Program-made: the position numbers and the translations under genes
Notes under the pieces: generated by a model
The model's database searches: none
Told to the model about the DNA's origin: nothing
What the model saw: the letters and a program-made list of their open reading frames with translations, nothing else
Part shown: positions 17,988 to 33,702 of the stretch, in pieces
How the letters are laid out: each line of letters opens with the position of its first letter
How positions within the stretch are numbered: the first letter of the stretch is position 1
IMG/VR virus record: IMGVR_UViG_3300030330_004956
Span: 1 to 64,000 of that record
Origin: a virus
Lineage: Duplodnaviria > Caudoviricetes
Length of the DNA stretch: 64,000 bases
Direction: 5' to 3' (one strand)

Positions 17988-20900
17988 AGATTTATTTAAA
18001 TCAACGAAAATTATACAATCTTCTAGCCTTGAGGATATGGCTCGCGAAATTGAATCGCAAGAGTACATTGAATCATTCACGAAAGATAAGCAAAGATTTT
18101 TACCCAATGTAGACTATAGCAAGCCAGCCAATTTTGCATATTTTGGCTCTGCCGAAAAGTACTACACAGATTCTTTTGTGAGGATTCGTAATACATACCC
18201 TTACGATGGCTCAGAAAGAGAAAAGTTTGATTGGCTTAATGAGTCAACTTTTATTGATCTGTATATATTTGATAACCGATACCCAAGATTCAACGGATTT
18301 GTAAACTTGGGATATCCATCGTGGGGTACGTTAAGTGGATCTTTGATCGATGGATACGGCAAATCAGATTCTGACGTATATATTAAAACGTTTGGCGGCC
18401 CACATAAGTCAGACTTAAAAACATTAAAAAAGCAGCATGAAGATGCAAACAAATACGACACTTCAAAAACAAGAGAATCAAACCTCAAATTTAAATTAGA
18501 AGACGGTGTAACAATTGAAATGTGGCTAAAAAAGCCAGCCTTCAATACCGCAAAAACAGAGAAAGAGGTTTTATTTGATTTGTGGAATGGCGAAGCCTCT
18601 AGCTCGGCGCAATACGGAAGACTCAGATTAGAACTCACCGGCGCCTCTAGTGGCTCTCCATTCCTATTAACAGCGCTTAGTGGAACAACAGGTAAGCAAA
18701 ATCAAATAATTGGGCAGAACATCACTACAGCCTCTATAACTGATTGGACTCATGTGGCTCTTACTATGAAAAATAGTACAACCGTAGCAACAGCAGTTGA
18801 CACAAATTTATATATTAATGGCGCTCTAAACAGAACTCAGACTATTTCTGGAATGGCTTTGAAAGAAGTTACCGGTTCGATGATATCTTACCTTGGAGCA
18901 TTGCAAACTGCACCCTCTGGCTCTCCTACAATCCAATCTGGCGCCGGAAAATTCTCAGGATCTATCGATGAGTTTAGATATTGGAAAACAGAAAGAACTT
19001 CAAAAGAAATCGGTAGACACTATTGGACTAATATTGGTGGTGGAACCAATACTGATCAAGCAAATACTAACTTGGGCGTATATTACAAGTTTAACGAAGG
19101 TATCACGGGCACTTCATCATTTGATTCGGTTGTGTTAGATTACTCTGGGCGCGTCTCAAATGGTACTTGGACGGGATACCAAGCAGGCGCAAGAAGTACA
19201 GACTCGGCAATAGTTTTGTCAAAAGCTAGTAAAACAGAATTTAAAGATCCCACAATTTATTCTAGTCACCCAACATACAAGCTTGTGTTGGATGAATTGG
19301 AAAAGAGCGGTTCTGTACACGATACTCGAAACAACTCGGCTCTATTCCATACAATGCCTGCATGGATAACTGAAGAAGATGACACCAAGCACGGAAATCT
19401 TAAAAACTTAACGCAGATCATGGGTAGTTACTTCGACAATCTTTATTTGCACATCCAAGAAATAAATTCTCTAAAAGATGTATATTCACATTTTCAAGCT
19501 AATGTAATTGATCAGCAAGATCTATATGCTTCCACTAGTATCACTGGTACTGTCAAGCCTCTTCCTTTTGCGGATCGCCTGCTAACCAATGCCGGCTTTG
19601 TAGCTCCGGAATTATTTGCAGACGCTACAGTTTTAGAGGCTTTGGCTACCAGAAGTGAAGATGAAAATTATGAAATGAAACTTCACAATGTGAAAAACCA
19701 AATTTATCAAAATGTGTACTCATGTATTTCTAACATATACAAACAGAAGGGCACTAATAAAAGTTTTAGGAACGTGTTGCACTCATTTGGAGTGGACGAG
19801 GACGTCGTAAAAATTAACTTTTATGGCGACAATGTAGATTTTGAAATAGAAGACAGACATAAAATTAGATCCAGCAAAGAAAAGTTTGTTAGCTTTAGTC
19901 ATCCAGATCGCTTTCACGGCACAGTCTATCAATATGCTTCTGGCTCTAGTTCATCTGGATTTATATCTGGCTCTGGAAAAGACTTTGAAAAATACATACC
20001 AGTAACTTTTGAGGTTCAAACTGTATTGCCAGATAAAATGCCGTTCAATGAGCCAAATGGATTTGCTACTCCTTTTGTAACATCTTCAATTGTTGGTATC
20101 CACGAAGCCAACGCCTCCACTCCTAGTAGCTATACAATCCCCGGTACTGATAGCTGCGGGCTTGATATATACACTGTAAGAGACGAACAGGAGTCAAAAC
20201 GAGTTAGATTCCATCTTTCTTCGTCAGCCCTTGGCGTACACCTTTCCTCGTCTTTGTATGACGAACAATATAAAAATAATCAGTGGCTATTGGCATTTAA
20301 GATCAGAAACGACAAAGCACCATCAGCAGACTTGGTACTTAGTTCGTCTTTAAATTCATCATATCTACTTGAGTTCGTAGGATACAACACCGTTGATAAG
20401 AGTCAAATACACACTTTTAGTTTAACAGCTAGCGTAGCCTCCGCATCAGCACACAGCTTTTTAAATTCTTCTAAAAGAATATACGCCGGCGCCCAACGTC
20501 AAAACTTTACAGGCTCCACTATGCAACAATTCTCTGATCATAATATAGGATTTGTAAGATACTGGATGAGTTATCTGGAAGATGAAACGCTTCAAGCACA
20601 CGCTTATGACAGTAAGAATTACGGCGCCGGCTCCCCATTTAGAAGTTCTTACTTGATGGAAGACTCGATTAATGATATTAAAATCCCAGAAATAGAAACT
20701 CTTTTACTCTCTTGGGATTTTGAAACGCTTTCAACTACCGATAGTTCTGGGCAATTTATAGTATTGGATACCACTAGTGGCTCTGCCGAAGCAAGATACT
20801 CTCCAACATTCCAGTCACTAAAGAGCAAATTTTATCATGGACGTGGTGACAAATTCCTGCCAAACGACGAAAAAGTGATCGACGCTAACCACATTTCTAT

Positions 20901-23900
20901 CGCCCGAGTAACATATCCAGAAATCTTGCAAGGCGATGATATGATAGAAATTAGATTGCAAGATGATGTTAAGTTTACAAAAAATACTTTACCACAAGAC
21001 TATTATATCGCATTTGAAAAATCGATGGCACAAACTGTATCTGAAGAGATGATTCGATACATGGCGTCTGTTAAAGACTTCAACAATCTTATTGGACGCC
21101 CAGTCAATCGCTATAGAATGGAATATAAAGACTTGTCTAAGTTAAGACAATTGTTTTTTGAGAAGATTAGAAACGAGCCAGATCTTGACAAGTATATTGA
21201 TTACTATAAGTGGCTCGATGACGCACTAGGTGAGATGCTTGTTGCTCTTGTTCCTGCGTCTCTTAAACATTCTGATGGAATCAATAATGTAATTGAAAAC
21301 TATATTTTTGCAAGAGATAAATACTTTAATAAATTCCCAACAATTGAGTTTAAGGCACCTACTCCAGAAGGCGGTATGAATACAATCAATCGCCACCTTT
21401 ATCCATGGAAAACGGGACATGCCCCAGTCGGTGGCTCACCAGAAAATGAAAATTGTTTTTGGTGGCTGAACCGCGCCGAACGCGATCGCCCCATCTTGTC
21501 TGGCTCTAATTCTGGCTCTAACCACTCCAGAGTAAAAGTTTTTCAAAATAGAAAATCTGTATTAGATCGTTCATTCACCACCGCGCAACATTTCGCAGTA
21601 GATAGAGGAAGAAGTCTGCATGGTGGGGTGAACTATGAAGATAACAAAAAGAGAGATTATGTCTGGAGTGCCACCAAAGAAGTGGCTGAATACCCGCTAC
21701 AGTACAATTTGTTTGGCGGATTCCCATTAAGATACATCTATACAAATAATGAAATGCTCATGGCGCTAAAAGATTGCACTGATGAGCGCCCTGCTCATGA
21801 AAAAATCAAAAGAGCATTCTTTGCAATAGACGGAATGGAGTCGTTTAGACATGCATATCTTAGTAGCTCTCGCGACGGCGTATTCAAGGGTGGCATGGTG
21901 ATGCCATTCAACATAATGTCGTCATCAGTCACCACTGGATATGCTGCTCAGTTAAGTGGCTCTGGTAATATAGGCGGTATCGACTTAGCAAACGTCCACT
22001 CTGACACAACGGACAATACCAATGCAATCCCCTTACAAGGCCCATTTACTGAAAGGTGGGTTGGAGGACACCAATCTCGTCATGCACCAGTTAACAGGGG
22101 AAGTGATGGCGAAGCAAGCAGAGGTGAGGGATACAAGATCCTTGTTAGTGATTTGTTAAATGAGAGTGGTGCCCTTGGTGTTGTTGGAGCAGATTATCCA
22201 GCGCCGTATTCAAACATGGTAGATGCACCACACTTTAGAGTCGATCAGGCAAAAGCTAGATATTATCGCGATGGCAGAGCAAAACGTCCATTAAATATTA
22301 AAAACATTAAAACTTCTGGATCTCAAGTAGGAAACTACCAGAAAAACTATCAATTTGTACATACGTTTGGCAGAGCACAACAACGATTGTGGATGAGAGA
22401 ACAATCAGTTACTATCCAAAGACATAATGCAATCAATAAAACAATGCCTACCACAACTCAAGAGACTGGTTTGTTCGCCCGCGGTACCGGCTCGGCGGGC
22501 AATACAATGTCCAACTTTCATTCTTCTAGCTTGTATTTAGGCGGTATAAATACTAGCACAAATGAGACAGTCAACACTGCTACAGATTCAGTCTTAGCTA
22601 CAAAATTCTCAGCCCCGGGCTCTTATGAAACAATGTCTGATATCTTCTTGGACTTATATGGACGAGAAAAATCTGTTTACAATGCGCTACCTTTCCGTAA
22701 TTTGACAGTCAGAGGCTCAGGCTCTGGCGAGTCAGGAACATTCCGACTTATAGACATCCATGGCAACAGATATGGACTCAGAACACACCTAACACGCCAC
22801 TCTGCTAGATTTGGTATTGATAGTGTGGTTGGCTCTGGAAAGCCATCATTCCATAAAGTAAACAGAAATGCCAAATGGGATGCATCAGAAGAGTCGTATG
22901 ATTATGATAACTATTGGCATCAACATCACATACCACAATCAGACTTTCAATACAAGTGGGTAAAGTTGTCTCACACTGCAACGCTAGCCACATCATCTAT
23001 GGCTGGGCATTTATTGTCTGATTTTTCAGAGCCATCTGGAACTACCGCGAGATATCCACATGAGCATATAAGCTATGCTGTTCCAAGTCAAAGTGTTGTT
23101 AACAGAAGAAGAGACACGATGACTGCATATGGATATCCTAGTTGGGAACAAGTAAGAAATAACGATACCCCAGAAAACAACAAATTAAAAAAATCTTATG
23201 GATATAATATCTTCAACAGAATTACGCTACCTGCCAATGCAGCGCACCCACACCCATCAGGAAATTTCCTTGACATAACAGGCTCTAGAGAAGAGTCTAG
23301 AGTTACGGCAAACATTCCCAATAAAGTCGATTTGGCTTACAAAAAGAGTAGATTTGAATTTATATATCCATATGTGAACATGAGATATCATTTTAGTAAT
23401 CAATATTTTCATTACTTGAACGTGAATCCAAATGCTAATGAAACAATGTATGAAACTTTTTATTCTTACTACTCGAATAACGCAAACCGTACAGAAGATA
23501 ACACAGGATTTTCTGTGATTAGACACAAAATTAGGCAAAACGTTTTCCCACAATACATCAAACATACGAAGTTCAATGTAAGACACAGGCACTTTTACAC
23601 TTCACACTTTTGGGCAGATGGTGAAAATAAACTATACAATACGGACACTAGCGAAACTGGATCCTATCATAGACTTGATGAGATCGGACGTAGGCAAACC
23701 AACGTTACTGCCTCTCTGTTTAAGACTGAAAACTTAAATACAATAACAAAGTTAAATATTTCAGCCGCACCTCCAGTTATGACTAACATAATCCCATCTC
23801 AGTCAATTTGGAGTATGGATTCTAGAACAAACTTTACATCTTCAAGTCCTCAGATCGGTGCATCCAACTCTGCCGGCGCCCCCGGAGTCTTGCAAAATCA

Positions 23901-26900
23901 AGATCACCATTTCCATAACAACACAAGCAAAGCAGTATTATTACAATCTGGATCCGCCGCATCAGGCTCTTTCCAAATGTCAGGTGCTACAGTGCCCGGC
24001 ACGAAAGCAACCGGCTCGTTTACTGTTAGAGGAATTATACCAGTTGGAAATAAAGCAACCGGTAGTTTCCAAGTAACTAGTTCAAATGTTCAAGGTACAT
24101 CTGGACAAGTAATATTCCAAGCGCAGCCTGCAAACGTAGCTGCTGTAAGCGCCTCGTATCAGTTCAGAGTAAAGGGCAGGGAAATACCGGGACAATTTGC
24201 TAAAGCTAGATTTGAGGTTTCTGGAGCATTTTTCACTGGTTCTGCGAGTAGTGGTAGTTTTGTGTTTGACAAAGATATTCCCCTAGGTGGAAGGCGATCA
24301 TATGTAATCGCCAGAATTTCAACCAACACATCTAGACAGGGTGATTTACTAAAGCTAAACCGCCGATTCGAATCTGATCATTCGTTTTTGTTTAATCCAC
24401 AAGGGTTTACCGACTTTCCAGCCAACACTTCCTCGCTTATGCCTACCAATCCTCGTCGATCGATATGCTTAAGCGGTTCTGAATTTATTGGTGTCACGTT
24501 GCCAACCACCGGCCCGGGCTCAGGACTTTCCGGCGTAGGTACGAACAAGATACAGCCTAGAATTTTTTCAATGTATACTAAGATTACAAACAGTTCGTTA
24601 TTACATGCTACTAATAAGAAATACTTAGTATACCTATACGATGCCGTTAACGGTAATCCTGTTTTAGAGTTATATTATAATAGTGGATCCGGCGGCGGAA
24701 ATCCAACATCATATGATCTTGTTATGAGAGAGTATAGACTCTCAGGATCATCTTTAGGCTTTACACAATTAACATGGGCTGGAGTGGGAGGCTCAACTTC
24801 ATGGAGAAACTTTACAATTTTCACTGATCCTTCTTCGATCACCGGCGGCGGACAAATTGGACATACAGCTTTGTATATTGATGGAACTAAGTTTGGTACC
24901 GCACCTACCCTCGACACCAGCGGCATGGCGGGAATGGGCAGCGCAACCAGTATGGTATACAACGAGCCTACAACAATGTACATTGCTGGCGCACCAAATT
25001 CACTCATATCCGGCGATCATCGATGGACTGCCGAAATTTGTATTGATTCGTTCGTACAGTGGGGAAGCTCGTCATATCACCCAGATATTGTTGCCACCCA
25101 AGGAACGAAACAACTCAACTTTGTGACAGCAATATATAACGGCGGAACATTAGAGCCGCATTATAGTAACACTGGTAGCGCACATATTACTCAATATTAT
25201 GACTTTGGACAAGGAAGAAAAGGCACAAGTACTAGTCTTGCTTTTTGTGACGATATCAAGTGGCCCGGAAGATTCTTCAATCTGGATCCGTCATCATCTC
25301 CAATAGGCTTAAACAATGCAAAGATATCTACTGGTTCTCTTTTTAATCATATTGTAGTCGGTGATGGCTTAGATCCGCAGCACTCCACAGCCGCTTGGGT
25401 AGGAACTTCTGGAAGTAACATTCACAACAAAAAAGCTAGATTTCGTACTGGAAAATTTGTGGATCCAAAAACGGAGCAAGATTGGAGAGATCACATCGTA
25501 GCAACAATTTCATCGGTGCAGTCCAACGATACGTTTTTTGATATAGAAGCTCGCGTCCAAGAAGAAACAGCATCTTCTAACATGTCTACGACATGGTATA
25601 AAAGGACATCCGGTTCTTTTGCCGCAGATCCTTTAGCTACATACACCTCCGGTAACGGAGGCATTTCCACCGGCGATACCATTGGATCTGTATTACTTTA
25701 TGTGGTTTCGAAACAACAAAGTATCGGCAATGATTATCAGTTAGATACGTGTTTCGGCGTCAATGCACAATCAGGACAACTTAGAAGTGTACTTGCTTTA
25801 TCATCCAGTACCACTTCCAATGCTCCCGTTCAAGACGGCACCGTAATACATGACACTGGAATTAGCATCGGTGGAACTAGTATATTCTTGGATCACCACA
25901 GTAGTTCTCAAACGCCGGCAAACTGTGTACGTACTTGGACAACTCTTAATAAATCTTTCGCTATGTCATCCACCAGTGGATTTAGATTAAAAAACGATTA
26001 TCCCGTCAACGGGCTATTGAACAACATGCAAGACAGCACCATGTCATGGTGGTACGCTAAAGATGGTGACAATACAGGCTCCGGACATATGGCATTCGCA
26101 ATTCAATTTGATGCTGCATGTAATCCATCGGCAGGACAAGGCGGCTATCATTTCTTCTACGGCGGATCCGCAATAAACATTAAAGTATTCGCATCTAACA
26201 CAGTACACAGAAGAGTACAAGTTACATATGCCAATATTGCCGCTCAGGGTGGACAATTGGCGAACTTCAATGTAGATGATTTTAACCACTATGCTATTCT
26301 GTTTGATGCTAGTACTTTCGATGATAATAATGGTACTGCCGGCTTCAAACTTTATGTTAATGGGGTAGAATATACTGGAACCTATTCATACAGTAGCACC
26401 GGCACTTCTTTTGGCGGAAGAGGGCAAAATTTGCTTTCACTAGCCTTAATGAATGGTATAACACATAACAACTATAGAATGTATGGCAGGTTTACTCAAT
26501 TTGCTGCTCACAGAACTCTTCTCACCGCCGCCCAAGTTAGGGAATTGTACTCCGGTGGTAGGCATGATGAGGTACAGCCTGTAGATCCCAAAAATCTGGC
26601 TCATTACTACCCCCTTAACAATATTCAAGATGGTGTTAATGCAGCTTCTGTTAATGACACTTTGACTACTGCTGGCATCGCCCACGTACTGGACAAAACC
26701 CTGAATAGCGCCCGAAGCGCCTGTAATCTTACTGTAAATGGTGCTAATGGCATTAGACTTCGAAATGGCATACCGAGCAACAATAGAAGCACAACCGTAA
26801 TAAAAAATGCGCTCGAAGAAACAATATCAAATGTAGTTACCAATTTTACAGCTAGTCGAAGTGGAGATAGGTTCACGATTATTTCAACAACCGCCAACTC

Positions 26901-29900
26901 ATCATTTGATGGTACTGCCATAAATAACACCGCTGACAATTTTTATACCGGCGCCTCTGAAACTTCTGGTGGACTTGACTCTAGTGGATCTGTCCAAGGG
27001 CATAACTTAGCAATTGGCTCTAAGACGTTCATAGCAGACGGACTCGGAACATCAAATACAGCAACTAATTTTTACATTGCCAACAATAGTACCGATTCGG
27101 ATTTTTGGGACGATCTTTCGCAATCTATCAAAGATAACACTGTCTTTGACACAATCAATATTACAGGAACAGGCAATAAAAGATTCTTTAACCTGACGGC
27201 ATCCACTACAGGTACTGCAAATAATGGAGGATTTTCTGTTGATACTGGAAATAGCTTCAGAGTTCTTCAGGATGCCCAAGGCGGAACTAACCATGCAGGA
27301 ATTTTAGATGATGATCGTATCCAACTTAAGCCATCCACCAATAGTTCTTTATATAGAACTTTTAGGGCTGATTTCGGCGGAAGTGATAGTGATACTGCGA
27401 CAATTAAATTTGTCCACTCATCACAGTCTTCAGATGTTAATTTCTGGAACGCCCTAAAAACCAAGATCGAAGCAGAAGGGTTTGGGGTAGCTTATAATGC
27501 TAACAGCCCGTCAGGCGGCGTAGCTACCTTTACGATAACAAATCACATAGGAGGCGCCGCAGGTAACTCTCCCAATAATAACATTATAGATACACCGTCT
27601 TTCGATCATCACACGGCAACTACAAAATTTGCAGGAGGATCTGACACTGATGGCGCCCAGCCGGGTGACACAATTACAATCAATGGAGTCACTATTACTC
27701 TAGTAAATTCAGCCCCCGGCAACAATCAAGAAGTTAAAGTTACAGGAGTATCTGATACTACATTCTGGAACTCTTTGAGTTCAAGTTTAAGTCACTCTAT
27801 TGCTCCCACGTATAATGTTGTAAAAGCCGGCTCAGGCTCTCCAAGGACGTTTACAGTTACTTCAGTTGCAACTGGCACCGCGCAAAATCCAAACGCATCG
27901 GAGGGCGGATCTTCCTTTACAATCGATTCACAAAATGTTGGTACCGCCGAATCTGGAGCAGAGAATGGCGATGAGATCATCATTGGCGGTTCAACTTTCG
28001 CAATTAATTTAGGCTCTGGGCTTGGCACCGGCTCAACATCAGATTTCCATAATGCCCTTAAGGATCAAATTATAGCAGCAACAAATTTTGACACAATCAC
28101 TATTACAGCGCTCGGTACAGGGTATTCTGCTTTCCGCCTTACTTCTTCTGTAACTGGAACCGCTGAGAATGTTGACTTTGAGACAAATTCCGCAGGATCT
28201 AGAAATACATTTAATAACACCCAAGGAGCAGGCGGCGGAACGAATGCATTTGGTATTGGACACCGAGATCACATCATATTCAAAGACACAGAAGACTCCC
28301 AAGCTGGCACCGCCAATGTAAGATTCTTAGCAGATACAACTGGTACTGGATCATTTGCCGGTAATTATACTAAAGCAATTAACATAAATACCGGTGGTGT
28401 AGGCTCTGGTGATGATCCAAATCCATTAACTGGCTCTACTGACGAAGAAAAGAGTAACGAGTGGTGGAACAAGCTTTCAGCATCTATTAAGGCAAATACA
28501 GGATTTGACGAGATTACTATTACTAAGGCTGATAACGTAGCAGTGTTTCACTTAACTGCATCTTTAACAGGCTCTAACTTCAATAACGATATCGTTTCTA
28601 TTCACTTGGCACCCACAACGCCCCCTGCTGGGCACGGGTTCGAAGCCTTTAGCCAAACTAAGGGAGGCACAAACGAAACTGGCGCCAAAGTAGGAAATAC
28701 TATTACCCTTGGCGACGGCACGCAAGGTGGGTTTGTAAACTTTTCAATAGTATCCAGCAGCAGCCCCGGCCCAAGAGAAATTAATGCTGCCGACACTACA
28801 GACTCTGCAATGTTTGACGCACTGTCAGCTAGCATCAAAGCGAACACTCCATATGGAAGTATAATTATTAATTCATCTAGCATCCCGGCTACATTTCATC
28901 TAACTTCATCCCGTACATCCGGAGTAGATCCATATACTGGATTACCAGATATTACTGGCTCTAATAACAATTTTGCTGTCGGCATCGGTGGCAGCAACAG
29001 AACATTTAGAAACGCTGTGGGTGTACAAGGTGGTACTGATGGCTTGTTTAAGTTCGTTAAGTTTACAGAAGTCATCCCACAACCTAGATATGCATACCCG
29101 CATATTCTTACTTCACCCGGCTCCGTCCGTGCTCCATCTGCTAAGTCTAATTTGGGATTAATCACTCCAGATTACAAGCTCAGATCTAACCACTTTAACT
29201 TAACCAGATCTCTAGGAAAAAGCACAGATGGGCTCTATGACAATACTTCCAGATGGATAACTCCAGATCTCACTGGACTGACTCCATTCGATTCAGACTA
29301 TAATACATGGTATGAAGATATCAAAGCACACAACAAGCATTTTGCTCTGGTTCCGGAGTTTAGAATTAGTAGCCATGTGCCATCTATCGTGGCATCTGGT
29401 ACAGATTTGTTTGATTATTTCTCTAGAAATTATTGGATGGAATTGACTGGTACCAGTTTCGACGATGGAAAATCAGTTGCAACAAACCGGCGCCCTAATC
29501 AAAACAAGTTTGTTGGAGAATATGCTATAACAACAAACATCAAAAATGTTGACACAATCGTGGAAGACAATAATTCAAATAATGTATTCCCGTATAAAAT
29601 TACTCTAACCTGCGAAGCATTGAAAAAATTCTTGCCATATGAAGGATTTTATCCACAAACCAGAACAGTACAAATGTGTGAAGCGTTCGCAAACTCTTAT
29701 GGTAAGCACTTCCGCGCCCAAGAGGCAGATCCCTCTAATACTAATTTAGAGTTCCCAATCAATAATGTGCCCGCACAATCGCGCCCTATTTATGATGCAA
29801 TTATGTCTCCCGGTATTTTGTACAATACAATTAAATCTGGTATGGCTGTTGACTATCCTGTGTTACTGAACAGGCTAATAACCGGCTCTTATCTGGATCC

Positions 29901-32900
29901 ATATGGCGGAACGAACTACATGATTCGAAACGAGTATTTCAACGAAAGACTTCCTTTTGAAACTTTGATCTCCCCGGAAGCGCATCTTTATAAAAAATCA
30001 ATTGTTGATGCTAACCCACACCCAAGTTCATCTTTCAACTTGAAAACCAGATGGACTGGACAAGGAGATATAAATTATAAATTAATGGCTAATAACTTCT
30101 TTGCAGAGACTATTGAGTTCTTCTTGCAAGGCGGTAAGACGTCAAGGATTATTTCAAAGCCAGATACTGATCCTAGTTTTGGAATCGTTCTACAAGATCA
30201 CGCTGGCAGACTGCCAGTATATCGTGCAATGTTTAGGGTTTACAAGTCGAAGAAGGCTCACCCGTACTTAGAATTAAGCGGAACTACAGATATTATTTCC
30301 GGCTCAGATAGTGCATTTGATAAATTTCATAACCGTCCTCCAAGTGGCACAAATTATTTCTTGAAAGAGTACGGACAAAGAACTGGTAGTGCTTTAGAAT
30401 ATGACATTCAAAAAGTTAATTTCCCACGTCCGCAATTTAACCCATATGTTGAAGTTGAAACAATGACAATGTATTCGCAACCAAATGCATTCGGCCCACC
30501 ATGTGCTGGCGGAGTTGCTGTTCAACTTAAAGACTTCGGTGGTGGTGGAGGTGCTGCCCGCGGCGGTACGAACAACAACACGACATATATGATGTATGAT
30601 TCTACAAATGGGTACAACTCTCCGTTTACACCACCATACTACGATGGCGAAGCATGGGCTATATACACGTTTGCCCCTATCAGATCCGGTAAGCATACTT
30701 TGGATGAAATCATAGAAAACACAACTGTTAAATACCTCAGATACGAATTGAATCATGAAAGTGGTTCTTTTGGAGATCGCGGTACCGCCGGCCCACAAGG
30801 ATTTGCAATTAATGACAATGCTATGCAAGCTAATGCATCGTTTGATCTTTTCAAGCAAATCTCCATCGCCCCTGCTGTCTTCGATATTGCCGGTGAAACA
30901 CAGGCTGTCGATAAAGATCCTAGAAAAGAAGGAAAAGCTTGGGTTATTCAATCGAAATTTGAAACTCCGATTCTGGATTTCTCTAAGTATCTCAACAGAG
31001 AATACAACGCTGAATTCGAGTCTGATGTAACCTCTGCCGATATTTATACCGCCAGCCTAAGCCTTAGTGGTGCCAGCCAAGAAAAAGATAACCTAAGCTC
31101 CGTACACGCTTCTCTGGCATCTGTTAGTAAGTTGTCAGGAGCGTTGAATCCAATCGGAATGTGGCACCAATATGGTGAATTCCCAGAAAATGAAGATAAA
31201 GGCATCTTTATGCAATTGGTTGATGTGCCCCCAAGCTATGTCGAGTTGGGTACTGAGATGACAATCGCGAATCCAAAATATACATTAATACAACCAAATG
31301 ATCCGTCATGTGATGCTTCGGGAATGGGACAAGTATATGCAACAGCTTCGATAGTATCTGAAGTTCTGCCTTATTTTAAGAAAACTGAAATTAGAAGAAG
31401 ACTGGAAGGTGTTGATGAGTTCTCGGCAGTCGGCGGAGCAATTCAGGTTCTAAACGCTGATACAGGAATTATTTTAGACACAGAACTAAGAGAAGCAGAT
31501 CTACAAGCAGCATTTGGAACATTGCCTACCGCAAACTCAGGAAATATGATTGGAAACTTCAGTGTATTCAATGTATTCCGAGATTCGACAAACTATACTA
31601 TGAATATATTGACTGGCTCCACTTTCAGTTCTGGTAAGTTTAAGGTATTCTCCGCTGGTTCTGATGTTTCCAATGATTACTCCAGAGCTACTACTGGAGA
31701 TTTCCCGGGACACTTTGCTGCTTCGTATTATCACTTTGATCGTCCTACGACTTATGCACCGTTGCTAATCGCTACCAAGAATCTCAATAGTCTTAAGTAT
31801 GACTTTGGAGAATTCAGAAATGGCTTCTTTGAAGATTTCCTCAAAGATTTCTCAATTGGTATACACTATTCAGATCAGTCTCCAACTTTCGGAGACAGTG
31901 AGCCAATGAAATGTGCATCTGGTTCGCAAGGGCTTGTATTCGTGCCTAAGCTCCTTATTCACACTTTAGAATTGAAGAATAACAATTTGACTTTAGGTAC
32001 CCTTTCTGAATTGAAAGCGGATGACACAATAACAAAAGAATTGTTGGGCGTCAACACAATCATAACAAACAATAATAAAACTAAAAAGAGCTTCAAGTCA
32101 TTAAAGAAAGTTATTTCAATGCCTCCTGCTGGCTTGAAAAAGCCTAAATCTGTCGGAGACTTCCAAGTTGGCGGATTCACGGGAGTCACAAAGAAATTTG
32201 ATCTTATTCCACCGCGCCCCGCTGTACAAACTCAGCCTAGCACCGCTTCATATACTCAGTTTGAACCAATGTTCGTCCGCGCAGCAATCAGATTTAACCA
32301 AGGTGCCCCAACACAATCTGCTAATCAACTCTATAATACTGATAACTTTGCCAGTATGAGCCAATACGCTCCACAAAATGAAAACAATATTGCAGGTAAT
32401 GCATCAACTGTTAGATGGGGACAATACATGCATACTGAAGGGGTTCACCAGTTAACTAAGTCTTTAGCTGATCTAGTTGGGTTCAGTCAGCAAAAAGTTA
32501 AAATGGGCGTTACCGCCGAAGCAAGAATTATCAGAGAAGCTGTAGTTGCAATTCCATACGTACAAGAAGGCGGAGTGAGAAATTATCTTAATTTGAATAA
32601 GCCGGCGGTAGATAAATATCTTTTCGCCAAGGGCTACACGCGCTTTGACAGAACAACAGAGCGAGGGCAAAAGATGGATCCACCAGTAGGAGCCGATGTT
32701 ATTGATGATATCGAAACAGCTTTGGGTGGTGATACATCTCCAGATTCCTTTAGTGATCCAAGAGACTTGGTGCATTCATCTGTGAAAAGACAGATTTCCA
32801 AAATGAGACAATATAGTTTACCGCCACATTTGGATTTCGTCAAATTTAATATTAACCCAGTCGCAATGTATTTCTTTGAATTTAAGAAAGAACTAAACAG

Positions 32901-33702
32901 GCAAGAACTAAATGACTTGTGGCAAGGCGTGAGATCAAAATCTCTAACGTCTGTAAAATTTGATACTAAGAGTGTCACCCACATTCTACGTCCAGAAGCG
33001 CTTCTGGGTTCTTTGAATGGGCAAGGAGTCGGCAGAAATGTATATGCAGACGCTGATAAACTTAAAAACTTAAAATGGTTGGTGTTCAAAGTCAAAGAAA
33101 AGGCAAATACCAGCTACACCAAAAAGATGGAATCCGATCTTGGTGATCCTAGATTCAAGTTTGATTTACAAAACAGTGAACAGGAAGAAGTCAACTATGG
33201 ATATAACTGGCCGTATGATTACTTCTCGTTGGTAGAAAATGCGAAACTATCTGTCGAGATTGATATGAGATACATACCAGATACCACACCCGGTAAAGAG
33301 TTTACTCCACCAAACCCGGATGATTATGATGATGATATTGAACAACAATATGATGGAATTATCGAAGATCCAGTTGCGCCACTGGAAGATTCAGAGACTC
33401 CCTATAAAGGCTATCAGGTTGAAAGCGTAGAGGACGATACGCCAACAGGCACCCTGCTAGCCAGCGGCATGGAGTATGGTACCGTAAATGATCTCTATGG
33501 TGATCCTGAAGATGACACCGGTGGCGGAGGTGGCACCGGAGGTGGCACAACTGTAGGATTCCGTAGTTTAGTTGACATTGAGATCGATGATCCGGCGAGT
33601 ATTACGCCATCAGTGCAGGGCTCTGGCGGAGGCGCTGGTTACGGTGGCTCTGGTGGTGGTGGCGTAGGACAAGGCTCAGATGGCGTTGATGATGATTACT
33701 AG
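17977..33702 (+). CDS. giant (5241 aa) gp7-like baseplate protein with multiple LamG/concanavalin-A domains and a nested repeat stalk
   Basis: LamG motifs (TIEMWLK, WTHVAL, LYING, FSGSIDEFRYW, YYKFNEG) at about 18505-19180; gp7/P2 gpI-like KQKGT...LHSFG at 19741; further LamG-like domains at about 20000-20780, 24460-25370 and 25950-26770; acidic Gly-rich C-terminal tail. Confidence 0.8.
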   Translation: MKLKDLFKSTKIIQSSSLEDMAREIESQEYIESFTKDKQRFLPNVDYSKPANFAYFGSAEKYYTDSFVRIRNTYPYDGSEREKFDWLNESTFIDLYIFDNRYPRFNGFVNLGYPSWGTLSGSLIDGYGKSDSDVYIKTFGGPHKSDLKTLKKQHEDANKYDTSKTRESNLKFKLEDGVTIEMWLKKPAFNTAKTEKEVLFDLWNGEASSSAQYGRLRLELTGASSGSPFLLTALSGTTGKQNQIIGQNITTASITDWTHVALTMKNSTTVATAVDTNLYINGALNRTQTISGMALKEVTGSMISYLGALQTAPSGSPTIQSGAGKFSGSIDEFRYWKTERTSKEIGRHYWTNIGGGTNTDQANTNLGVYYKFNEGITGTSSFDSVVLDYSGRVSNGTWTGYQAGARSTDSAIVLSKASKTEFKDPTIYSSHPTYKLVLDELEKSGSVHDTRNNSALFHTMPAWITEEDDTKHGNLKNLTQIMGSYFDNLYLHIQEINSLKDVYSHFQANVIDQQDLYASTSITGTVKPLPFADRLLTNAGFVAPELFADATVLEALATRSEDENYEMKLHNVKNQIYQNVYSCISNIYKQKGTNKSFRNVLHSFGVDEDVVKINFYGDNVDFEIEDRHKIRSSKEKFVSFSHPDRFHGTVYQYASGSSSSGFISGSGKDFEKYIPVTFEVQTVLPDKMPFNEPNGFATPFVTSSIVGIHEANASTPSSYTIPGTDSCGLDIYTVRDEQESKRVRFHLSSSALGVHLSSSLYDEQYKNNQWLLAFKIRNDKAPSADLVLSSSLNSSYLLEFVGYNTVDKSQIHTFSLTASVASASAHSFLNSSKRIYAGAQRQNFTGSTMQQFSDHNIGFVRYWMSYLEDETLQAHAYDSKNYGAGSPFRSSYLMEDSINDIKIPEIETLLLSWDFETLSTTDSSGQFIVLDTTSGSAEARYSPTFQSLKSKFYHGRGDKFLPNDEKVIDANHISIARVTYPEILQGDDMIEIRLQDDVKFTKNTLPQDYYIAFEKSMAQTVSEEMIRYMASVKDFNNLIGRPVNRYRMEYKDLSKLRQLFFEKIRNEPDLDKYIDYYKWLDDALGEMLVALVPASLKHSDGINNVIENYIFARDKYFNKFPTIEFKAPTPEGGMNTINRHLYPWKTGHAPVGGSPENENCFWWLNRAERDRPILSGSNSGSNHSRVKVFQNRKSVLDRSFTTAQHFAVDRGRSLHGGVNYEDNKKRDYVWSATKEVAEYPLQYNLFGGFPLRYIYTNNEMLMALKDCTDERPAHEKIKRAFFAIDGMESFRHAYLSSSRDGVFKGGMVMPFNIMSSSVTTGYAAQLSGSGNIGGIDLANVHSDTTDNTNAIPLQGPFTERWVGGHQSRHAPVNRGSDGEASRGEGYKILVSDLLNESGALGVVGADYPAPYSNMVDAPHFRVDQAKARYYRDGRAKRPLNIKNIKTSGSQVGNYQKNYQFVHTFGRAQQRLWMREQSVTIQRHNAINKTMPTTTQETGLFARGTGSAGNTMSNFHSSSLYLGGINTSTNETVNTATDSVLATKFSAPGSYETMSDIFLDLYGREKSVYNALPFRNLTVRGSGSGESGTFRLIDIHGNRYGLRTHLTRHSARFGIDSVVGSGKPSFHKVNRNAKWDASEESYDYDNYWHQHHIPQSDFQYKWVKLSHTATLATSSMAGHLLSDFSEPSGTTARYPHEHISYAVPSQSVVNRRRDTMTAYGYPSWEQVRNNDTPENNKLKKSYGYNIFNRITLPANAAHPHPSGNFLDITGSREESRVTANIPNKVDLAYKKSRFEFIYPYVNMRYHFSNQYFHYLNVNPNANETMYETFYSYYSNNANRTEDNTGFSVIRHKIRQNVFPQYIKHTKFNVRHRHFYTSHFWADGENKLYNTDTSETGSYHRLDEIGRRQTNVTASLFKTENLNTITKLNISAAPPVMTNIIPSQSIWSMDSRTNFTSSSPQIGASNSAGAPGVLQNQDHHFHNNTSKAVLLQSGSAASGSFQMSGATVPGTKATGSFTVRGIIPVGNKATGSFQVTSSNVQGTSGQVIFQAQPANVAAVSASYQFRVKGREIPGQFAKARFEVSGAFFTGSASSGSFVFDKDIPLGGRRSYVIARISTNTSRQGDLLKLNRRFESDHSFLFNPQGFTDFPANTSSLMPTNPRRSICLSGSEFIGVTLPTTGPGSGLSGVGTNKIQPRIFSMYTKITNSSLLHATNKKYLVYLYDAVNGNPVLELYYNSGSGGGNPTSYDLVMREYRLSGSSLGFTQLTWAGVGGSTSWRNFTIFTDPSSITGGGQIGHTALYIDGTKFGTAPTLDTSGMAGMGSATSMVYNEPTTMYIAGAPNSLISGDHRWTAEICIDSFVQWGSSSYHPDIVATQGTKQLNFVTAIYNGGTLEPHYSNTGSAHITQYYDFGQGRKGTSTSLAFCDDIKWPGRFFNLDPSSSPIGLNNAKISTGSLFNHIVVGDGLDPQHSTAAWVGTSGSNIHNKKARFRTGKFVDPKTEQDWRDHIVATISSVQSNDTFFDIEARVQEETASSNMSTTWYKRTSGSFAADPLATYTSGNGGISTGDTIGSVLLYVVSKQQSIGNDYQLDTCFGVNAQSGQLRSVLALSSSTTSNAPVQDGTVIHDTGISIGGTSIFLDHHSSSQTPANCVRTWTTLNKSFAMSSTSGFRLKNDYPVNGLLNNMQDSTMSWWYAKDGDNTGSGHMAFAIQFDAACNPSAGQGGYHFFYGGSAINIKVFASNTVHRRVQVTYANIAAQGGQLANFNVDDFNHYAILFDASTFDDNNGTAGFKLYVNGVEYTGTYSYSSTGTSFGGRGQNLLSLALMNGITHNNYRMYGRFTQFAAHRTLLTAAQVRELYSGGRHDEVQPVDPKNLAHYYPLNNIQDGVNAASVNDTLTTAGIAHVLDKTLNSARSACNLTVNGANGIRLRNGIPSNNRSTTVIKNALEETISNVVTNFTASRSGDRFTIISTTANSSFDGTAINNTADNFYTGASETSGGLDSSGSVQGHNLAIGSKTFIADGLGTSNTATNFYIANNSTDSDFWDDLSQSIKDNTVFDTINITGTGNKRFFNLTASTTGTANNGGFSVDTGNSFRVLQDAQGGTNHAGILDDDRIQLKPSTNSSLYRTFRADFGGSDSDTATIKFVHSSQSSDVNFWNALKTKIEAEGFGVAYNANSPSGGVATFTITNHIGGAAGNSPNNNIIDTPSFDHHTATTKFAGGSDTDGAQPGDTITINGVTITLVNSAPGNNQEVKVTGVSDTTFWNSLSSSLSHSIAPTYNVVKAGSGSPRTFTVTSVATGTAQNPNASEGGSSFTIDSQNVGTAESGAENGDEIIIGGSTFAINLGSGLGTGSTSDFHNALKDQIIAATNFDTITITALGTGYSAFRLTSSVTGTAENVDFETNSAGSRNTFNNTQGAGGGTNAFGIGHRDHIIFKDTEDSQAGTANVRFLADTTGTGSFAGNYTKAININTGGVGSGDDPNPLTGSTDEEKSNEWWNKLSASIKANTGFDEITITKADNVAVFHLTASLTGSNFNNDIVSIHLAPTTPPAGHGFEAFSQTKGGTNETGAKVGNTITLGDGTQGGFVNFSIVSSSSPGPREINAADTTDSAMFDALSASIKANTPYGSIIINSSSIPATFHLTSSRTSGVDPYTGLPDITGSNNNFAVGIGGSNRTFRNAVGVQGGTDGLFKFVKFTEVIPQPRYAYPHILTSPGSVRAPSAKSNLGLITPDYKLRSNHFNLTRSLGKSTDGLYDNTSRWITPDLTGLTPFDSDYNTWYEDIKAHNKHFALVPEFRISSHVPSIVASGTDLFDYFSRNYWMELTGTSFDDGKSVATNRRPNQNKFVGEYAITTNIKNVDTIVEDNNSNNVFPYKITLTCEALKKFLPYEGFYPQTRTVQMCEAFANSYGKHFRAQEADPSNTNLEFPINNVPAQSRPIYDAIMSPGILYNTIKSGMAVDYPVLLNRLITGSYLDPYGGTNYMIRNEYFNERLPFETLISPEAHLYKKSIVDANPHPSSSFNLKTRWTGQGDINYKLMANNFFAETIEFFLQGGKTSRIISKPDTDPSFGIVLQDHAGRLPVYRAMFRVYKSKKAHPYLELSGTTDIISGSDSAFDKFHNRPPSGTNYFLKEYGQRTGSALEYDIQKVNFPRPQFNPYVEVETMTMYSQPNAFGPPCAGGVAVQLKDFGGGGGAARGGTNNNTTYMMYDSTNGYNSPFTPPYYDGEAWAIYTFAPIRSGKHTLDEIIENTTVKYLRYELNHESGSFGDRGTAGPQGFAINDNAMQANASFDLFKQISIAPAVFDIAGETQAVDKDPRKEGKAWVIQSKFETPILDFSKYLNREYNAEFESDVTSADIYTASLSLSGASQEKDNLSSVHASLASVSKLSGALNPIGMWHQYGEFPENEDKGIFMQLVDVPPSYVELGTEMTIANPKYTLIQPNDPSCDASGMGQVYATASIVSEVLPYFKKTEIRRRLEGVDEFSAVGGAIQVLNADTGIILDTELREADLQAAFGTLPTANSGNMIGNFSVFNVFRDSTNYTMNILTGSTFSSGKFKVFSAGSDVSNDYSRATTGDFPGHFAASYYHFDRPTTYAPLLIATKNLNSLKYDFGEFRNGFFEDFLKDFSIGIHYSDQSPTFGDSEPMKCASGSQGLVFVPKLLIHTLELKNNNLTLGTLSELKADDTITKELLGVNTIITNNNKTKKSFKSLKKVISMPPAGLKKPKSVGDFQVGGFTGVTKKFDLIPPRPAVQTQPSTASYTQFEPMFVRAAIRFNQGAPTQSANQLYNTDNFASMSQYAPQNENNIAGNASTVRWGQYMHTEGVHQLTKSLADLVGFSQQKVKMGVTAEARIIREAVVAIPYVQEGGVRNYLNLNKPAVDKYLFAKGYTRFDRTTERGQKMDPPVGADVIDDIETALGGDTSPDSFSDPRDLVHSSVKRQISKMRQYSLPPHLDFVKFNINPVAMYFFEFKKELNRQELNDLWQGVRSKSLTSVKFDTKSVTHILRPEALLGSLNGQGVGRNVYADADKLKNLKWLVFKVKEKANTSYTKKMESDLGDPRFKFDLQNSEQEEVNYGYNWPYDYFSLVENAKLSVEIDMRYIPDTTPGKEFTPPNPDDYDDDIEQQYDGIIEDPVAPLEDSETPYKGYQVESVEDDTPTGTLLASGMEYGTVNDLYGDPEDDTGGGGGTGGGTTVGFRSLVDIEIDDPASITPSVQGSGGGAGYGGSGGGGVGQGSDGVDDDY
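23950..24333 (+). repeat. eight tandem 48-bp (16-aa) degenerate repeats, consensus Gxx(A/S)xxxF
   Basis: GSAASGSFQMSGATVP, GTKATGSFTVRGIIPV, GNKATGSFQVTSSNVQ, GTSGQVIFQAQPANVA, AVSASYQFRVKGREIP, GQFAKARFEVSGAFFT, GSASSGSFVFDKDIPL, GGRRSYVIARISTNTS; Phe at position 8 in seven of eight. Confidence 0.85.
26989..29043 (+). repeat. six tandem ~100-140 aa domain repeats in the giant protein
   Basis: Units start at 26989, 27301, 27655, 27958, 28255 and 28684; each follows GDxIxI...(F/W)(W/H/F)xxLxxxI...FxLT(A/S)xxTG...GG(T/S)(N/D). Confidence 0.85.

What the first reader, a model, noticed from the sequence alone, without database searches (positions are those of the whole stretch)
23950..29043. Eight-layer nested ('matryoshka') domain stalk carrying two LamG lectin domains in a 5241-aa baseplate protein
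Seen: eight consecutive 16-aa units (23950-24333, Gxx(A/S)xxxF) are followed by exactly eight domain 'bodies' with the pattern GDxIxI...FWxxLxxxI...FxLTxxxTG...GG. The bodies start at 24334, 25828, 26989, 27301, 27655, 27958, 28255 and 28684. The first two are the most divergent and each is interrupted by a LamG-like domain. Known: in the similar repeat found in tail-sheath/flagellin-type insertion domains, an 'AxAxGxF/I' first strand directly precedes the 'GDTITI' strand. Inference: here every first strand has been moved ahead of all the bodies. The chain would run outward as 8 single strands, form the lectin domains at the tip and return, with each body completing one strand in reverse order. 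The result is a single-chain, looped-out ~1,700-aa receptor-binding arm whose length could change by paired gain or loss of one strand and one body at distant loci.
Basis: partly seen in the sequence, partly recalled or inferred. Interest (0 to 1): 0.9.

Follow-up and report, generated by a model that had tools for sequence, protein, structure and literature searches.

The report
Russian-doll stalk in phage baseplate protein
A 5,241-residue baseplate-region protein of an uncultured marine T4-like phage carries a 1,700-residue side arm that appears to be built from eight domains nested inside one another like Russian dolls, with two sugar-binding-type domains at the tip; relatives lengthen or shorten the arm by adding or losing matched pairs of pieces.

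Summary
ORF 17977-33702 (5241 aa) holds eight 16-aa units (aa 1992-2119), then six clear ~100-140-aa alpha/beta bodies (aa 3005-3689). Before these lie two divergent bodies, each interrupted by a jelly roll of LamG/pentraxin fold.

The nested, out-and-back reading is supported by five lines of in-silico evidence:
- A controlled complex prediction (units 1-6 against bodies 3-8) scored ipSAE 0.68, best control 0.00. Contacts were u3-b6, u4-b5 and u5-b4, the reverse order.
- Of 15 distinct complete arms, 14 have equal unit and body counts by manual segmentation (6/6, 8/8, 9/9, 12/12). Close relatives differ by matched indels: -2/-2, +4/+4, +1/+1.
- Homology is mirrored. Outer units and outer bodies are conserved; extra layers flank the tip.
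- The arm sits at three different sites of the host protein, so its two ends must meet.
- Rate covariation ranks the nested pairing 11th of 720.

Against: AF2 of a whole 6-layer arm left the units unplaced and folded the bodies without them. One homologue has 11 units and 10 bodies.

The body has no Pfam, PHROG or PDB sequence match. The closest known architecture is the cyanobacterial RNA polymerase Si3 insertion (six levels). Binding of host glycans by the tip is inferred, not tested.

The parts
17977..33702 (+). Giant ORF, 5241 aa (P0001): host protein plus inserted arm. It is fused to a C-terminal part that is a separate 1200-1660-aa gene in several relatives.
   Evidence: synteny; colinearity with P0007, L010 and L018
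18487..19011 (+). N-terminal Laminin_G_3 domain of the host protein (aa 171-345)
   Evidence: Pfam PF13385, E 5.5e-12, 46.5 bits against a cutoff of 27.6
22402..22587 (+). Empty 'site 1' (aa ~1476-1537). Here P0003, P0005, P0008, P0010 and P0011 carry their arm; the window protein is contiguous.
   Evidence: BLAST HSP boundaries; anchor sequences
23950..24333 (+). Eight 16-aa strand units u1-u8 (aa 1992-2119); the last is degenerate
   Evidence: conserved in homologues; u7 and u8 are strands in the AF2 model
24334..24453 (+). Body 1, N-terminal strands (aa 2120-2159)
   Evidence: AF2 strand E45-50 in model numbering; position directly after the last unit, as in homologues
24454..25458 (+). Tip insert 1 (aa 2160-2494). 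The jelly-roll core is aa ~2184-2362, of LamG/pentraxin-like fold; part of the range (aa ~2413-2487) has low confidence.
   Evidence: AF2 pLDDT 74-87 over the core; VIA Z 13.0 to the Gpr126 PTX domain, 185 residues aligned; Foldseek matches to laminin LG pairs
25459..25827 (+). Body 1, C-terminal part (strand, helix, strands; aa 2495-2617)
   Evidence: AF2 E409-418, H421-436, E442-452; not significant to the body HMM
25828..25938 (+). Body 2, N-terminal strands (aa 2618-2654)
   Evidence: sequence motif; AF2 strands
25939..26556 (+). Tip insert 2 (aa 2655-2860): LamG-like jelly roll
   Evidence: hhalign to the N-terminal Laminin_G_3 region, probability 93.6%, E 2e-7; VIA Z 15-17 to PAPP-A LG, pentraxins and neurexin LNS
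26557..26988 (+). Body 2, C-terminal part (aa 2861-3004)
   Evidence: weak body-HMM hit at aa 2929-3004, i-E 0.05; AF2 E847-855, H860-874, E878-883, E886-891; the orthologous part in homologues scores 15-25 bits
26989..27300 (+). Body 3 (aa 3005-3108)
27301..27654 (+). Body 4 (aa 3109-3226), the distinctive 'EAEGFGV' type; predicted partner is unit 5
   Evidence: contacts b4-u5
27655..27957 (+). Body 5 (aa 3227-3327); predicted partner is unit 4
   Evidence: contacts F3292 and F3314 with F2047
27958..28254 (+). Body 6 (aa 3328-3426); predicted partner is unit 3
   Evidence: contact F3386-F2031
28255..28683 (+). Body 7 (aa 3427-3569), with a long variable loop
28684..29043 (+). Body 8 (aa 3570-3689), the outermost layer
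29044..29166 (+). C-terminal anchor, where the chain re-enters the host protein (conserved P-Q-P-R-Y-x-Y-P-H ... K-S-N-L-G stretch)
   Evidence: 84% mean column identity among site-3 relatives

Best explanation
Residues 1992-3689 form a self-contained insertion cassette that folds as a recursively nested, out-and-back stalk.

Proposed fold. The chain leaves the host protein as eight short beta-strands, one per 16-aa unit. At the tip it builds two bodies that carry LamG/pentraxin-fold jelly rolls. It then returns through six further ~100-aa alpha/beta bodies. Each body takes up one outgoing strand beside its 'F-x-L-T-S-S' strand and its last strand. Unit i therefore belongs to body N+1-i, and the two ends of the arm meet at the base.

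What this allows:
- The cassette can sit in a surface loop; three different loops are used in relatives.
- Its length changes only by matched gain or loss of a unit and a body. Relatives have 6, 8, 9 and 12 layers, and one N-truncated contig shows at least 13 bodies.
- The tip cassette can be exchanged.

Inferred function. The protein lies in the baseplate gene block (gp25-like, gp6-like, one more gene, then this gene). The arm would then be a single-chain fibre that holds lectin-like domains a few tens of nanometres from the baseplate to bind host surface glycans.

Status of each step:
- Shown in sequence: the repeats, the counts, the matched indels, the mirrored homology and the three insertion sites.
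- Predicted: the strand-body contacts and the LamG fold.
- Inferred: location in the virion, dimensions and glycan binding.
For: (1) Complex prediction of bodies 3-8 against units 1-6, each with a 7-row alignment:
- ipSAE 0.68/0.70/0.68; best of three controls 0.00.
- 747-764 contacts, and the runs agree in at least 96% of them.
- pLDDT of the units 85-86. pLDDT of the bodies is 84 with the units but 63-66 with an unrelated partner.
- That mark was reached by 58 of 80 solved complexes and 2 of 110 mismatched pairs. These counts hold only roughly, because my own alignments were used.
- The lowest-error pairs are b5-u4, b4-u5 and b6-u3. The conserved unit F touches the body's F-x-L-T strand and last strand.
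- No solved relative exists by sequence, so the pass is unlikely to come from memory.

(2) Counts by manual segmentation guided by HMMs:
- 8/8 in P0001, P0003, P0005, P0006, P0007, P0008, P0012, L010, L013 and L018.
- 6/6 in P0010 and P0011; 9/9 in L015; 12/12 in L011.

(3) Matched indels between close relatives:
- P0011 against P0005 (78% identical) lacks units 4-5 and bodies 4-5. The remaining bodies are 93, 65, 90, 78 and 100% identical.
- L011 against L010 has four extra units (u7-u10) and four extra bodies (b3-b6) flanking the tip. Units u1-u6 match u1-u6, and b7-b12 match b3-b8.
- L015 against P0007 is 95% identical up to unit 8, then has one more unit and one more body.

(4) The arm is inserted at P0001-equivalent aa ~1511-1534 in five relatives and at ~1640-1655 in P0012. 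In the window's group it sits between aa 1991 and 3690. The host sequence is contiguous where the arm is absent.

(5) Residual identity covariation over 55 protein pairs ranks the nested pairing 11th of 720 permutations and the parallel pairing 370th. For u1-b8, u3-b6 (r 0.76), u5-b4 and u6-b3 (r 0.14, marginal), the nested partner has the highest correlation in that unit's row.

(6) In the AF2 tip model, u7 and u8 are strands.

(7) Tip inserts have the LamG/pentraxin fold.

(8) Gene order gp25-gp6-X-arm protein is conserved in eight loci.
Against: - AF2 on a complete six-layer arm (P0011, 1021 aa, noisy 35-row alignment) gave pTM 0.29. The units stayed unpaired at pLDDT 33-47, while the five C-terminal bodies folded at pLDDT 70-94 without them. 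The bodies may therefore be autonomous domains.
- L024 has 11 unit-like repeats for 10 bodies and no LamG tip.
- Counts of interrupted or divergent bodies rest on manual segmentation; an automatic core HMM undercounts them.
- The P0005/P0011 deletion removes the middle pair, which fits a parallel pairing equally well.
- Mirror homology and rate covariation could partly reflect exchange of contiguous central cassettes.
- The support for strand placement comes from one predictor (ESMFold2-based), apart from moderate-confidence strands for u7 and u8 in the AF2 tip model.
- There is no experimental structure, no virion data, and no sequence link of the host protein to T4 gp7.
Confidence: 0.75

Rival explanations
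1. The bodies are complete, autonomous domains strung in tandem. The 16-aa units run back along their surface as a loosely attached 'tape', or form a flexible spacer, without being part of each body's sheet. The ends may still meet, but there is no true domain nesting.
For: AF2 folded five bodies of P0011 at pLDDT 70-94 with the units unplaced. In the complex controls the bodies still reached pLDDT 63-66 without units.
Against: Every unit in every homologue keeps an invariant buried-type F and a hydrophobic residue two positions later. The predicted contacts put that F against the body's F-x-L-T strand and last strand with expected errors of about 0.5-0.7 A. Body confidence rises by about 20 pLDDT points when the units are present. 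Unit and body numbers change together.
Confidence: 0.15
2. A linear beads-on-a-string array. The units form a separate small beta element at the base, the bodies extend away from it, and the C-terminal end of the arm lies far from its start. Equal counts would be inherited coincidence.
For: Most arms have the same count (8/8), which common ancestry alone could explain.
Against: The arm occupies three different positions in an otherwise colinear host protein; this is hard to reconcile with ends tens of nanometres apart. Independent count changes are matched: -2/-2, +4/+4, +1/+1. The complex prediction passes its controls. Period 16 is short for a solenoid turn (general knowledge).
Confidence: 0.06
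3. The nested stalk is real but is not a receptor-binding arm. It would be a structural strut or spacer of the baseplate or tail, for example bridging wedges or reaching the sheath, with the LamG-fold domains acting as protein-protein contacts.
For: LamG-fold domains also mediate protein contacts (general knowledge). One homologue (L024) has no LamG tip at all. No sugar-binding residues were tested.
Against: Tips are swapped between lineages while the bases are kept (P0008; L015 against P0007). Layer number varies from 6 to at least 13. Both are typical of host-range elements rather than fixed struts; this is an inference.
Confidence: 0.2

Closest known systems
Si3 insertion of cyanobacterial/plastid RNA polymerase beta' (RpoC2)
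   Same: It is a large insertion in a loop of a host protein and forms an elongated stalk (150 A). Several repeated small beta domains there are discontinuous, built from distant parts of the chain as the chain folds back on itself. A 2026 ECOD survey cites it as a six-level recursive insertion (PMC10895346; PMC13114784).
   Different: The domain family is different (SBHM, against an unclassified alpha/beta body with no Pfam or PDB hit). Here the nesting is regular and deeper (8 layers, 6-12 in complete relatives, at least 13 bodies in one fragment). The N-side piece is reduced to one 16-aa strand. The tip carries lectin-fold domains. The cassette moves between three host sites, and layer number varies among close relatives.
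Out-and-back domain nesting of flagellin, hook, FliD and contractile-sheath proteins
   Same: The chain runs outward through successive domains and returns, so outer domains are insertions in inner ones (general knowledge). The body model's best, though weak, fold matches are sheath surface domains (phage Mu, A-1(L), E217, PhiTE), FliD D2/D3 and flagellin (Z 4.5-6.6).
   Different: Those proteins have 2-4 levels of unlike domains and polymerise. Here there are 8 or more levels of one repeated domain in a non-polymerising arm. The fold matches are below the level that shows kinship.
Donor-strand complementation in chaperone-usher pili
   Same: An incomplete beta domain is completed by a short strand that lies far away in sequence terms, producing a stiff rod of stacked domains (general knowledge).
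   Different: In pili the strand comes from the next subunit (between chains) and the rod is a polymer. Here all donor strands would be gathered in one N-terminal comb of the same chain.
Nested jelly-roll stalks in Asgard archaeal giant surface proteins
   Same: One short leading strand per domain body, mirror order, and matched gain and loss in relatives (AI notes, not checked here).
   Different: Other organisms and another domain type (jelly rolls as the repeated unit). Here the repeated unit is an alpha/beta body in a phage virion protein.
Trimeric phage tail fibres and LamG/CBM-tipped receptor-binding proteins
   Same: Position in the tail/baseplate gene block, an elongated shape with a lectin-fold tip, and modular tip exchange (inference).
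   Different: Classical fibres are homotrimers of beta-helix or coiled-coil shafts. This arm would be a single chain folded back on itself.

Membership tests
Recursively nested domain-insertion stalk (architecture class exemplified by RpoC2 Si3) | Domains are discontinuous: an N-side element far upstream completes a downstream body | tested here: met
   Prediction only. ipSAE 0.68 against a best control of 0.00; contacts u3-b6, u4-b5, u5-b4. AF2 of a whole arm did not reproduce this.
Recursively nested domain-insertion stalk (architecture class exemplified by RpoC2 Si3) | The halves occur in mirror order (A1 B1 C B2 A2), and layers are gained or lost as pairs | tested here: met
   L011 against L010, P0011 against P0005, L015 against P0007. 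14 of 15 arms have equal counts; L024 is 11/10.
Recursively nested domain-insertion stalk (architecture class exemplified by RpoC2 Si3) | The two ends of the whole insert are adjacent, so it sits in a loop of a host protein | tested here: met
   Three different insertion sites in colinear host proteins
SBHM domain family (the Si3 repeat itself) | Sequence or fold similarity of the repeated domain to SBHM | tested here: inconclusive
   No Pfam hit for any body at E up to 10. No PDB sequence hit. No SBHM or RNA polymerase chain appeared among the listed fold matches, but the search used a 1021-residue model.
LamG / ConA-like lectin superfamily (Pfam Laminin_G_3, PF13385) | Jelly-roll fold of LamG/pentraxin type | tested here: met
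   VIA Z 15-17 (rmsd 2.7-3.8 A, 185-217 residues aligned) for insert 2 and Z 13.0 for insert 1. Foldseek E 8e-7 to laminin LG4-5. The model has moderate confidence, pLDDT 62 overall.
LamG / ConA-like lectin superfamily (Pfam Laminin_G_3, PF13385) | Score above the Pfam gathering threshold | tested here: not met
   No Laminin_G_3 hit in aa 2120-3004 even at E up to 10. Only the N-terminal domain (aa 171-345) passes. Insert 2 is linked to that domain by hhalign, probability 93.6%.
LamG / ConA-like lectin superfamily (Pfam Laminin_G_3, PF13385) | Sugar- or calcium-binding site residues | not tested
   No residue-level comparison was made
T4 gp7-type baseplate wedge protein | Gene position after the gp25-like and gp6-like genes | tested here: met
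   gp6-like PHROG hits for 14686-16497. PF04965 GPW_gp25 lies upstream in homologous loci.
T4 gp7-type baseplate wedge protein | Sequence similarity to gp7 or any annotated baseplate family | tested here: not met
   No PHROG hit. No tblastn hit in 50,697 phage records. No PDB hit with a 5-sequence profile.
Sheath / FliD / flagellin surface-domain fold | Fold match of the body | tested here: inconclusive
   Best Z 6.6 (phage Mu sheath), 6.3 (A-1(L) sheath), 5.4 (FliD). All are below the level of about 8 that the tool calls informative. One ESM-Atlas cluster carries Flagellin_IN in 22% of members, score 0.90.

The most novel reading that the evidence does not exclude
This would be a new way to build a phage fibre. 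A single polypeptide makes a rod of 6 to 13 recursively nested domains, deeper than the six-level Si3 case given as the extreme in a 2026 survey. The rod carries exchangeable lectin-fold tips. It is portable between loops of a baseplate protein, and its length is tuned by paired gain or loss of one 16-aa strand and one body.
Probability: 0.55. Interest if true: 0.85.

Novelty: new variant of a known kind. Interest (0 to 1): 0.78.

Why it matters
If the predicted topology holds, this would be the deepest and most regular case of recursive domain insertion yet described, and the first in a virion protein.

- It would show that evolution can extend a rod layer by layer from the middle of a gene, using two coordinated insertions hundreds of residues apart.
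- It would give phages a single-chain alternative to trimeric fibres for placing receptor-binding domains at an adjustable distance.
- It offers a natural series (6, 8, 9, 12 and possibly 13 layers) for testing how nested proteins fold. The regular 16-aa strand plus ~100-aa body module could serve as a scaffold for protein design.
- It is a warning for annotation. The units look like low-complexity linker and the bodies like a plain tandem repeat, so domain-based pipelines would misread the architecture.

Tried and rejected
- Cultured-phage searches with the arm, the N-part, the C-part (tblastn) and 24 kb of DNA (megablast) found nothing.
- Pfam and PHROGs gave nothing for the arm or the bodies.
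- PDB sequence searches with a body profile and a host-protein profile gave only chance hits.
- A Foldseek PDB search with the whole-arm AF2 model gave no match at E <= 0.001.
- AF2 of the complete P0011 arm did not place the units. I do not read this as refutation, because pTM was 0.29 and the alignment was noisy. It is listed under evidence against.
- The search for related loci with the six-body alignment A1, and with A4 on metagenomes, found no conserved stretch to search with. The window's bodies alone found no IMG/VR relative.
- Automatic body counting with an iterated core HMM undercounted divergent bodies, and lenient thresholds gave false hits. Counts are therefore manual.
- Tandem Repeats Finder saw no DNA repeat.
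- Literature searches for nested or matryoshka phage baseplate domains returned nothing relevant.
- I first read L024's last repeats as vestigial units. On alignment, one of them fits the first strand of its body 1 better, which leaves 11 units and 10 bodies unexplained.
- P0020 could not be resolved because its contig starts inside the gene.

Full report
**Context.** The window is the first 64 kb of a 184,889-bp IMG/VR virus record estimated 98% complete. It carries T4-type modules: a gp6-like baseplate wedge gene at 14686-16497, primase, an SbcCD-like gene, large terminase and portal. The portal's best cultured relatives are Flavobacterium phage vB_FspM_immuto (40%) and Microcystis phage Mel-JY01 (43%). 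Homologous contigs come from TARA Oceans and other aquatic metagenomes. The gene of interest is ORF 17977-33702, 5241 aa.

**The observation.** Residues 1992-2119 form eight rows of 16 aa. Position 8 is F in seven rows and I in one; six rows begin with G.
- All seven F share one phase of period 16, which 0 of 200,000 shuffles reached. Column identity peaks only at period 16.
- The DNA shows no tandem repeat, so the array is old.
- An HMM built from them finds the same domains in independent homologues at 30-120 bits.
- An AF2 model of aa 2080-3010 (pLDDT 62, pTM 0.44) shows two jelly rolls. Each is flanked by N-side strands and a C-side strand-helix-strand-strand pattern like a body.

**The tip domains.** Pfam sees no LamG in the inserts, but three other results point to that fold.
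- Foldseek's top matches are laminin LG4-5 pairs, neurexin LNS domains and pentraxins, at E 8e-7 to 1e-4.
- VIA-align gives Z 15-17 for insert 2 and Z 13.0 for insert 1.
- A profile of insert 2 matches the protein's own N-terminal Pfam Laminin_G_3 region, probability 93.6%, E 2e-7.

**Relatives.** The family is rare. An exhaustive phmmer search of 1.84 billion representatives gave 40 hits. Word-based searches gave four. IMG/VR gave six loci and one metagenome scan gave twelve, several of them the same viruses. Nothing matched in cultured phages, Pfam, PHROGs or PDB sequences.

**Test 1: do the units bind the bodies, and in which order?** I gave the complex predictor bodies 3-8 (685 aa) and units 1-6 (96 aa), each with an alignment of seven orthologues.
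- The score was ipSAE 0.68/0.70/0.68 against 0.00 for all three controls.
- There were 747-764 contacts, and the runs agreed in at least 96% of them.
- pLDDT of the units was 85-86.
- The tool's mark was reached by 58 of 80 solved complexes and 2 of 110 mismatched pairs. These counts hold only roughly, because my own alignments were used.
- Body pLDDT was 84 with the units and 63-66 with an unrelated partner.
- The lowest-error pairs are body 5 with unit 4, body 4 with unit 5 and body 6 with unit 3, which is the reverse order.
- The conserved unit F lies against the F of the body's F-x-L-T strand and the F of its last strand.
- Every body uses the same relative positions as interface.
- No solved relative exists by sequence, so recall of a known complex is unlikely.

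This is a model's confidence, not a measurement.

**Test 2: counts.** I segmented 15 distinct complete arms by hand, guided by the HMMs, the helix motif and the G-G...G linkers.

| Units/bodies | Arms |
|---|---|
| 8/8 | ten arms, including the window |
| 6/6 | P0010, P0011 |
| 9/9 | L015 |
| 12/12 | L011 |
| 11/10 | L024 |

. A fragment, L025, has at least 13 bodies.

The strongest evidence comes from close pairs, where the differences are objective.
- P0011 is 78% identical to P0005. It lacks 32 aa (units 4-5, recombined within the S-G-S-F motif) and, about 700 aa downstream, bodies 4-5. The other bodies match at 93, 65, 90, 78 and 100%.
- L011 shares u1-u6 (8-15 of 16 identical) and its last six bodies (42-86%) with L010. 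It has four more units and four more bodies, placed on either side of the tip.
- L015 is 95% identical to P0007 up to unit 8, then has one more unit and one more body.

The distinctive 'AVSxS' unit and the distinctive 'EAEGFGV' body always sit at positions i and N+1-i: 5 and 4 of 8, 5 and 5 of 9, 5 and 8 of 12.

**Test 3: do the ends meet?** Outside the arm the host proteins are colinear, but the arm sits at three different places.
- In P0003, P0005, P0008, P0010 and P0011 it lies between P0001-equivalent residues ~1511 and ~1534.
- In P0012 it lies near ~1640-1655.
- In the window's group it lies between aa 1991 and 3690.

Where the arm is absent, the host sequence runs straight through. A module that can be dropped into different loops must start and end at about the same point. 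The nested topology provides this; a linear bead string of 6-12 domains does not.

**Test 4: rate covariation.** I took 11 arms (55 pairs) and removed pair and layer means from the identities of u1-u6 and the six outer bodies. The nested pairing then ranks 11th of 720 possible pairings and the parallel pairing 370th. For u1, u3 (r 0.76), u5 and u6 (r 0.14, marginal) the nested partner is the best-correlated body. Exchange of contiguous central cassettes could contribute to this signal.

**Against.**
- AF2 on the complete six-layer arm of P0011 gave pTM 0.29. It left the units at pLDDT 33-47 and folded the five C-terminal bodies at 70-94 without them, as three strands, a helix and three strands.
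- I weight this result less because the alignment was noisy and the global model poor, but it keeps the 'autonomous bodies plus tape' rival alive.
- L024 is off by one.
- The middle-pair deletion in P0011 does not discriminate pairing order.
- Only one predictor places the strands.

**What it is like.** Recursive nesting as such is known.
- The cyanobacterial RpoC2 Si3 insertion is a 150-A stalk of eight SBHM domains, four of them discontinuous (PMC10895346).
- It is quoted as a six-level case in a 2026 survey of 48,551 insertion events (PMC13114784).
- Earlier notes of this scan describe nested jelly-roll stalks in Asgard proteins.
- The body fold itself has only weak matches, to sheath surface domains, FliD D2/D3 and flagellin at Z 4.5-6.6.

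The present case differs in domain family, depth (8 layers; 6-12 in complete relatives; at least 13 bodies in one fragment), regularity, reduction of the N-side half to one strand, lectin-fold tips, portability between host sites and variation among close relatives. I therefore rate it a new variant of a known kind.

**Function.** Gene order (gp25-like, gp6-like, one gene, this gene) is conserved in eight loci, which places the protein in the baseplate block. Similarity to T4 gp7 could not be shown. The following together suggest a host-range element that presents glycan-binding domains at an adjustable distance:
- lectin-fold tips;
- swapped tip cassettes (P0008 shares its base with the P0005 lineage and its tip with the window's lineage; L015 against P0007);
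- a variable number of layers.

This is inference. A purely structural role is the main functional rival.

Noticed in passing
window 29044-33702 (aa 3690-5241); loci L002, L004, L005, L008, L009: The C-terminal ~1,550 aa of the window protein correspond to a separate downstream gene of 1200-1660 aa in relatives whose arm sits at site 1 or site 2. In the window, P0007, L010, L011, L015 and L018 the two are fused into one ORF of about 5,000-5,560 aa.
   Followed up: partly
L024 (metagenome contig MDSZ01073145.1), ORF aa 74-1568: This arm has no LamG-fold tip. It has 11 unit-like repeats for 10 bodies, the only count mismatch found. It is unclear whether one unit is unpaired or the contig has an error.
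   Followed up: partly
L025 (MDTB01118533.1), ORF aa 1-1809: An N-truncated arm with at least 13 bodies after the second LamG-like insert, the longest seen. Its units are cut off by the contig end.
   Followed up: no
P0020 / L016:595-4485: This fragment shows a complete body, then the first strands of another body, then two unit-like strands and a LamG-bearing body. It may be a branched or second arm. The contig starts inside the gene, so it cannot be resolved.
   Followed up: partly
window 6442-14238: A second giant ORF (2598 aa, no PHROG hit) lies upstream of the gp25/gp6-like genes. A 2267-2872-aa counterpart holds the same position in the homologous loci (L003, L005, L008, L009).
   Followed up: no
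window ~33450-33699 (aa ~5160-5241): The giant protein ends in an acidic stretch followed by glycine-rich low-complexity runs (G-G-G-G-G-T-G-G-G and G-S-G-G-G-A-G-Y-G-G-S-G-G-G-G).
   Followed up: no
window 51632-53614: The portal's nearest cultured relatives are Flavobacterium phages (40%) and Microcystis phage Mel-JY01 (43%), which hints at a Bacteroidota or other aquatic host. Together with about 38% GC, this fits the first readers' note on a phage bS21 gene.
   Followed up: partly
P0008 / L008:10001-19996: A mosaic arm. Its first units and last bodies are 61-64% identical to the P0011 arm (P0005/P0011 lineage). Its tip (last units, bodies 1-2 with inserts) aligns instead with the tip type of the window's lineage (P0003, P0006, P0007 and the window), so a tip cassette was exchanged.
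   Followed up: partly
window 24262-33702 (P0002): The public protein collection holds a 3146-aa gene call identical to aa 2096-5241 of the ORF. It starts inside the unit array, so existing annotation splits the arm.
   Followed up: no
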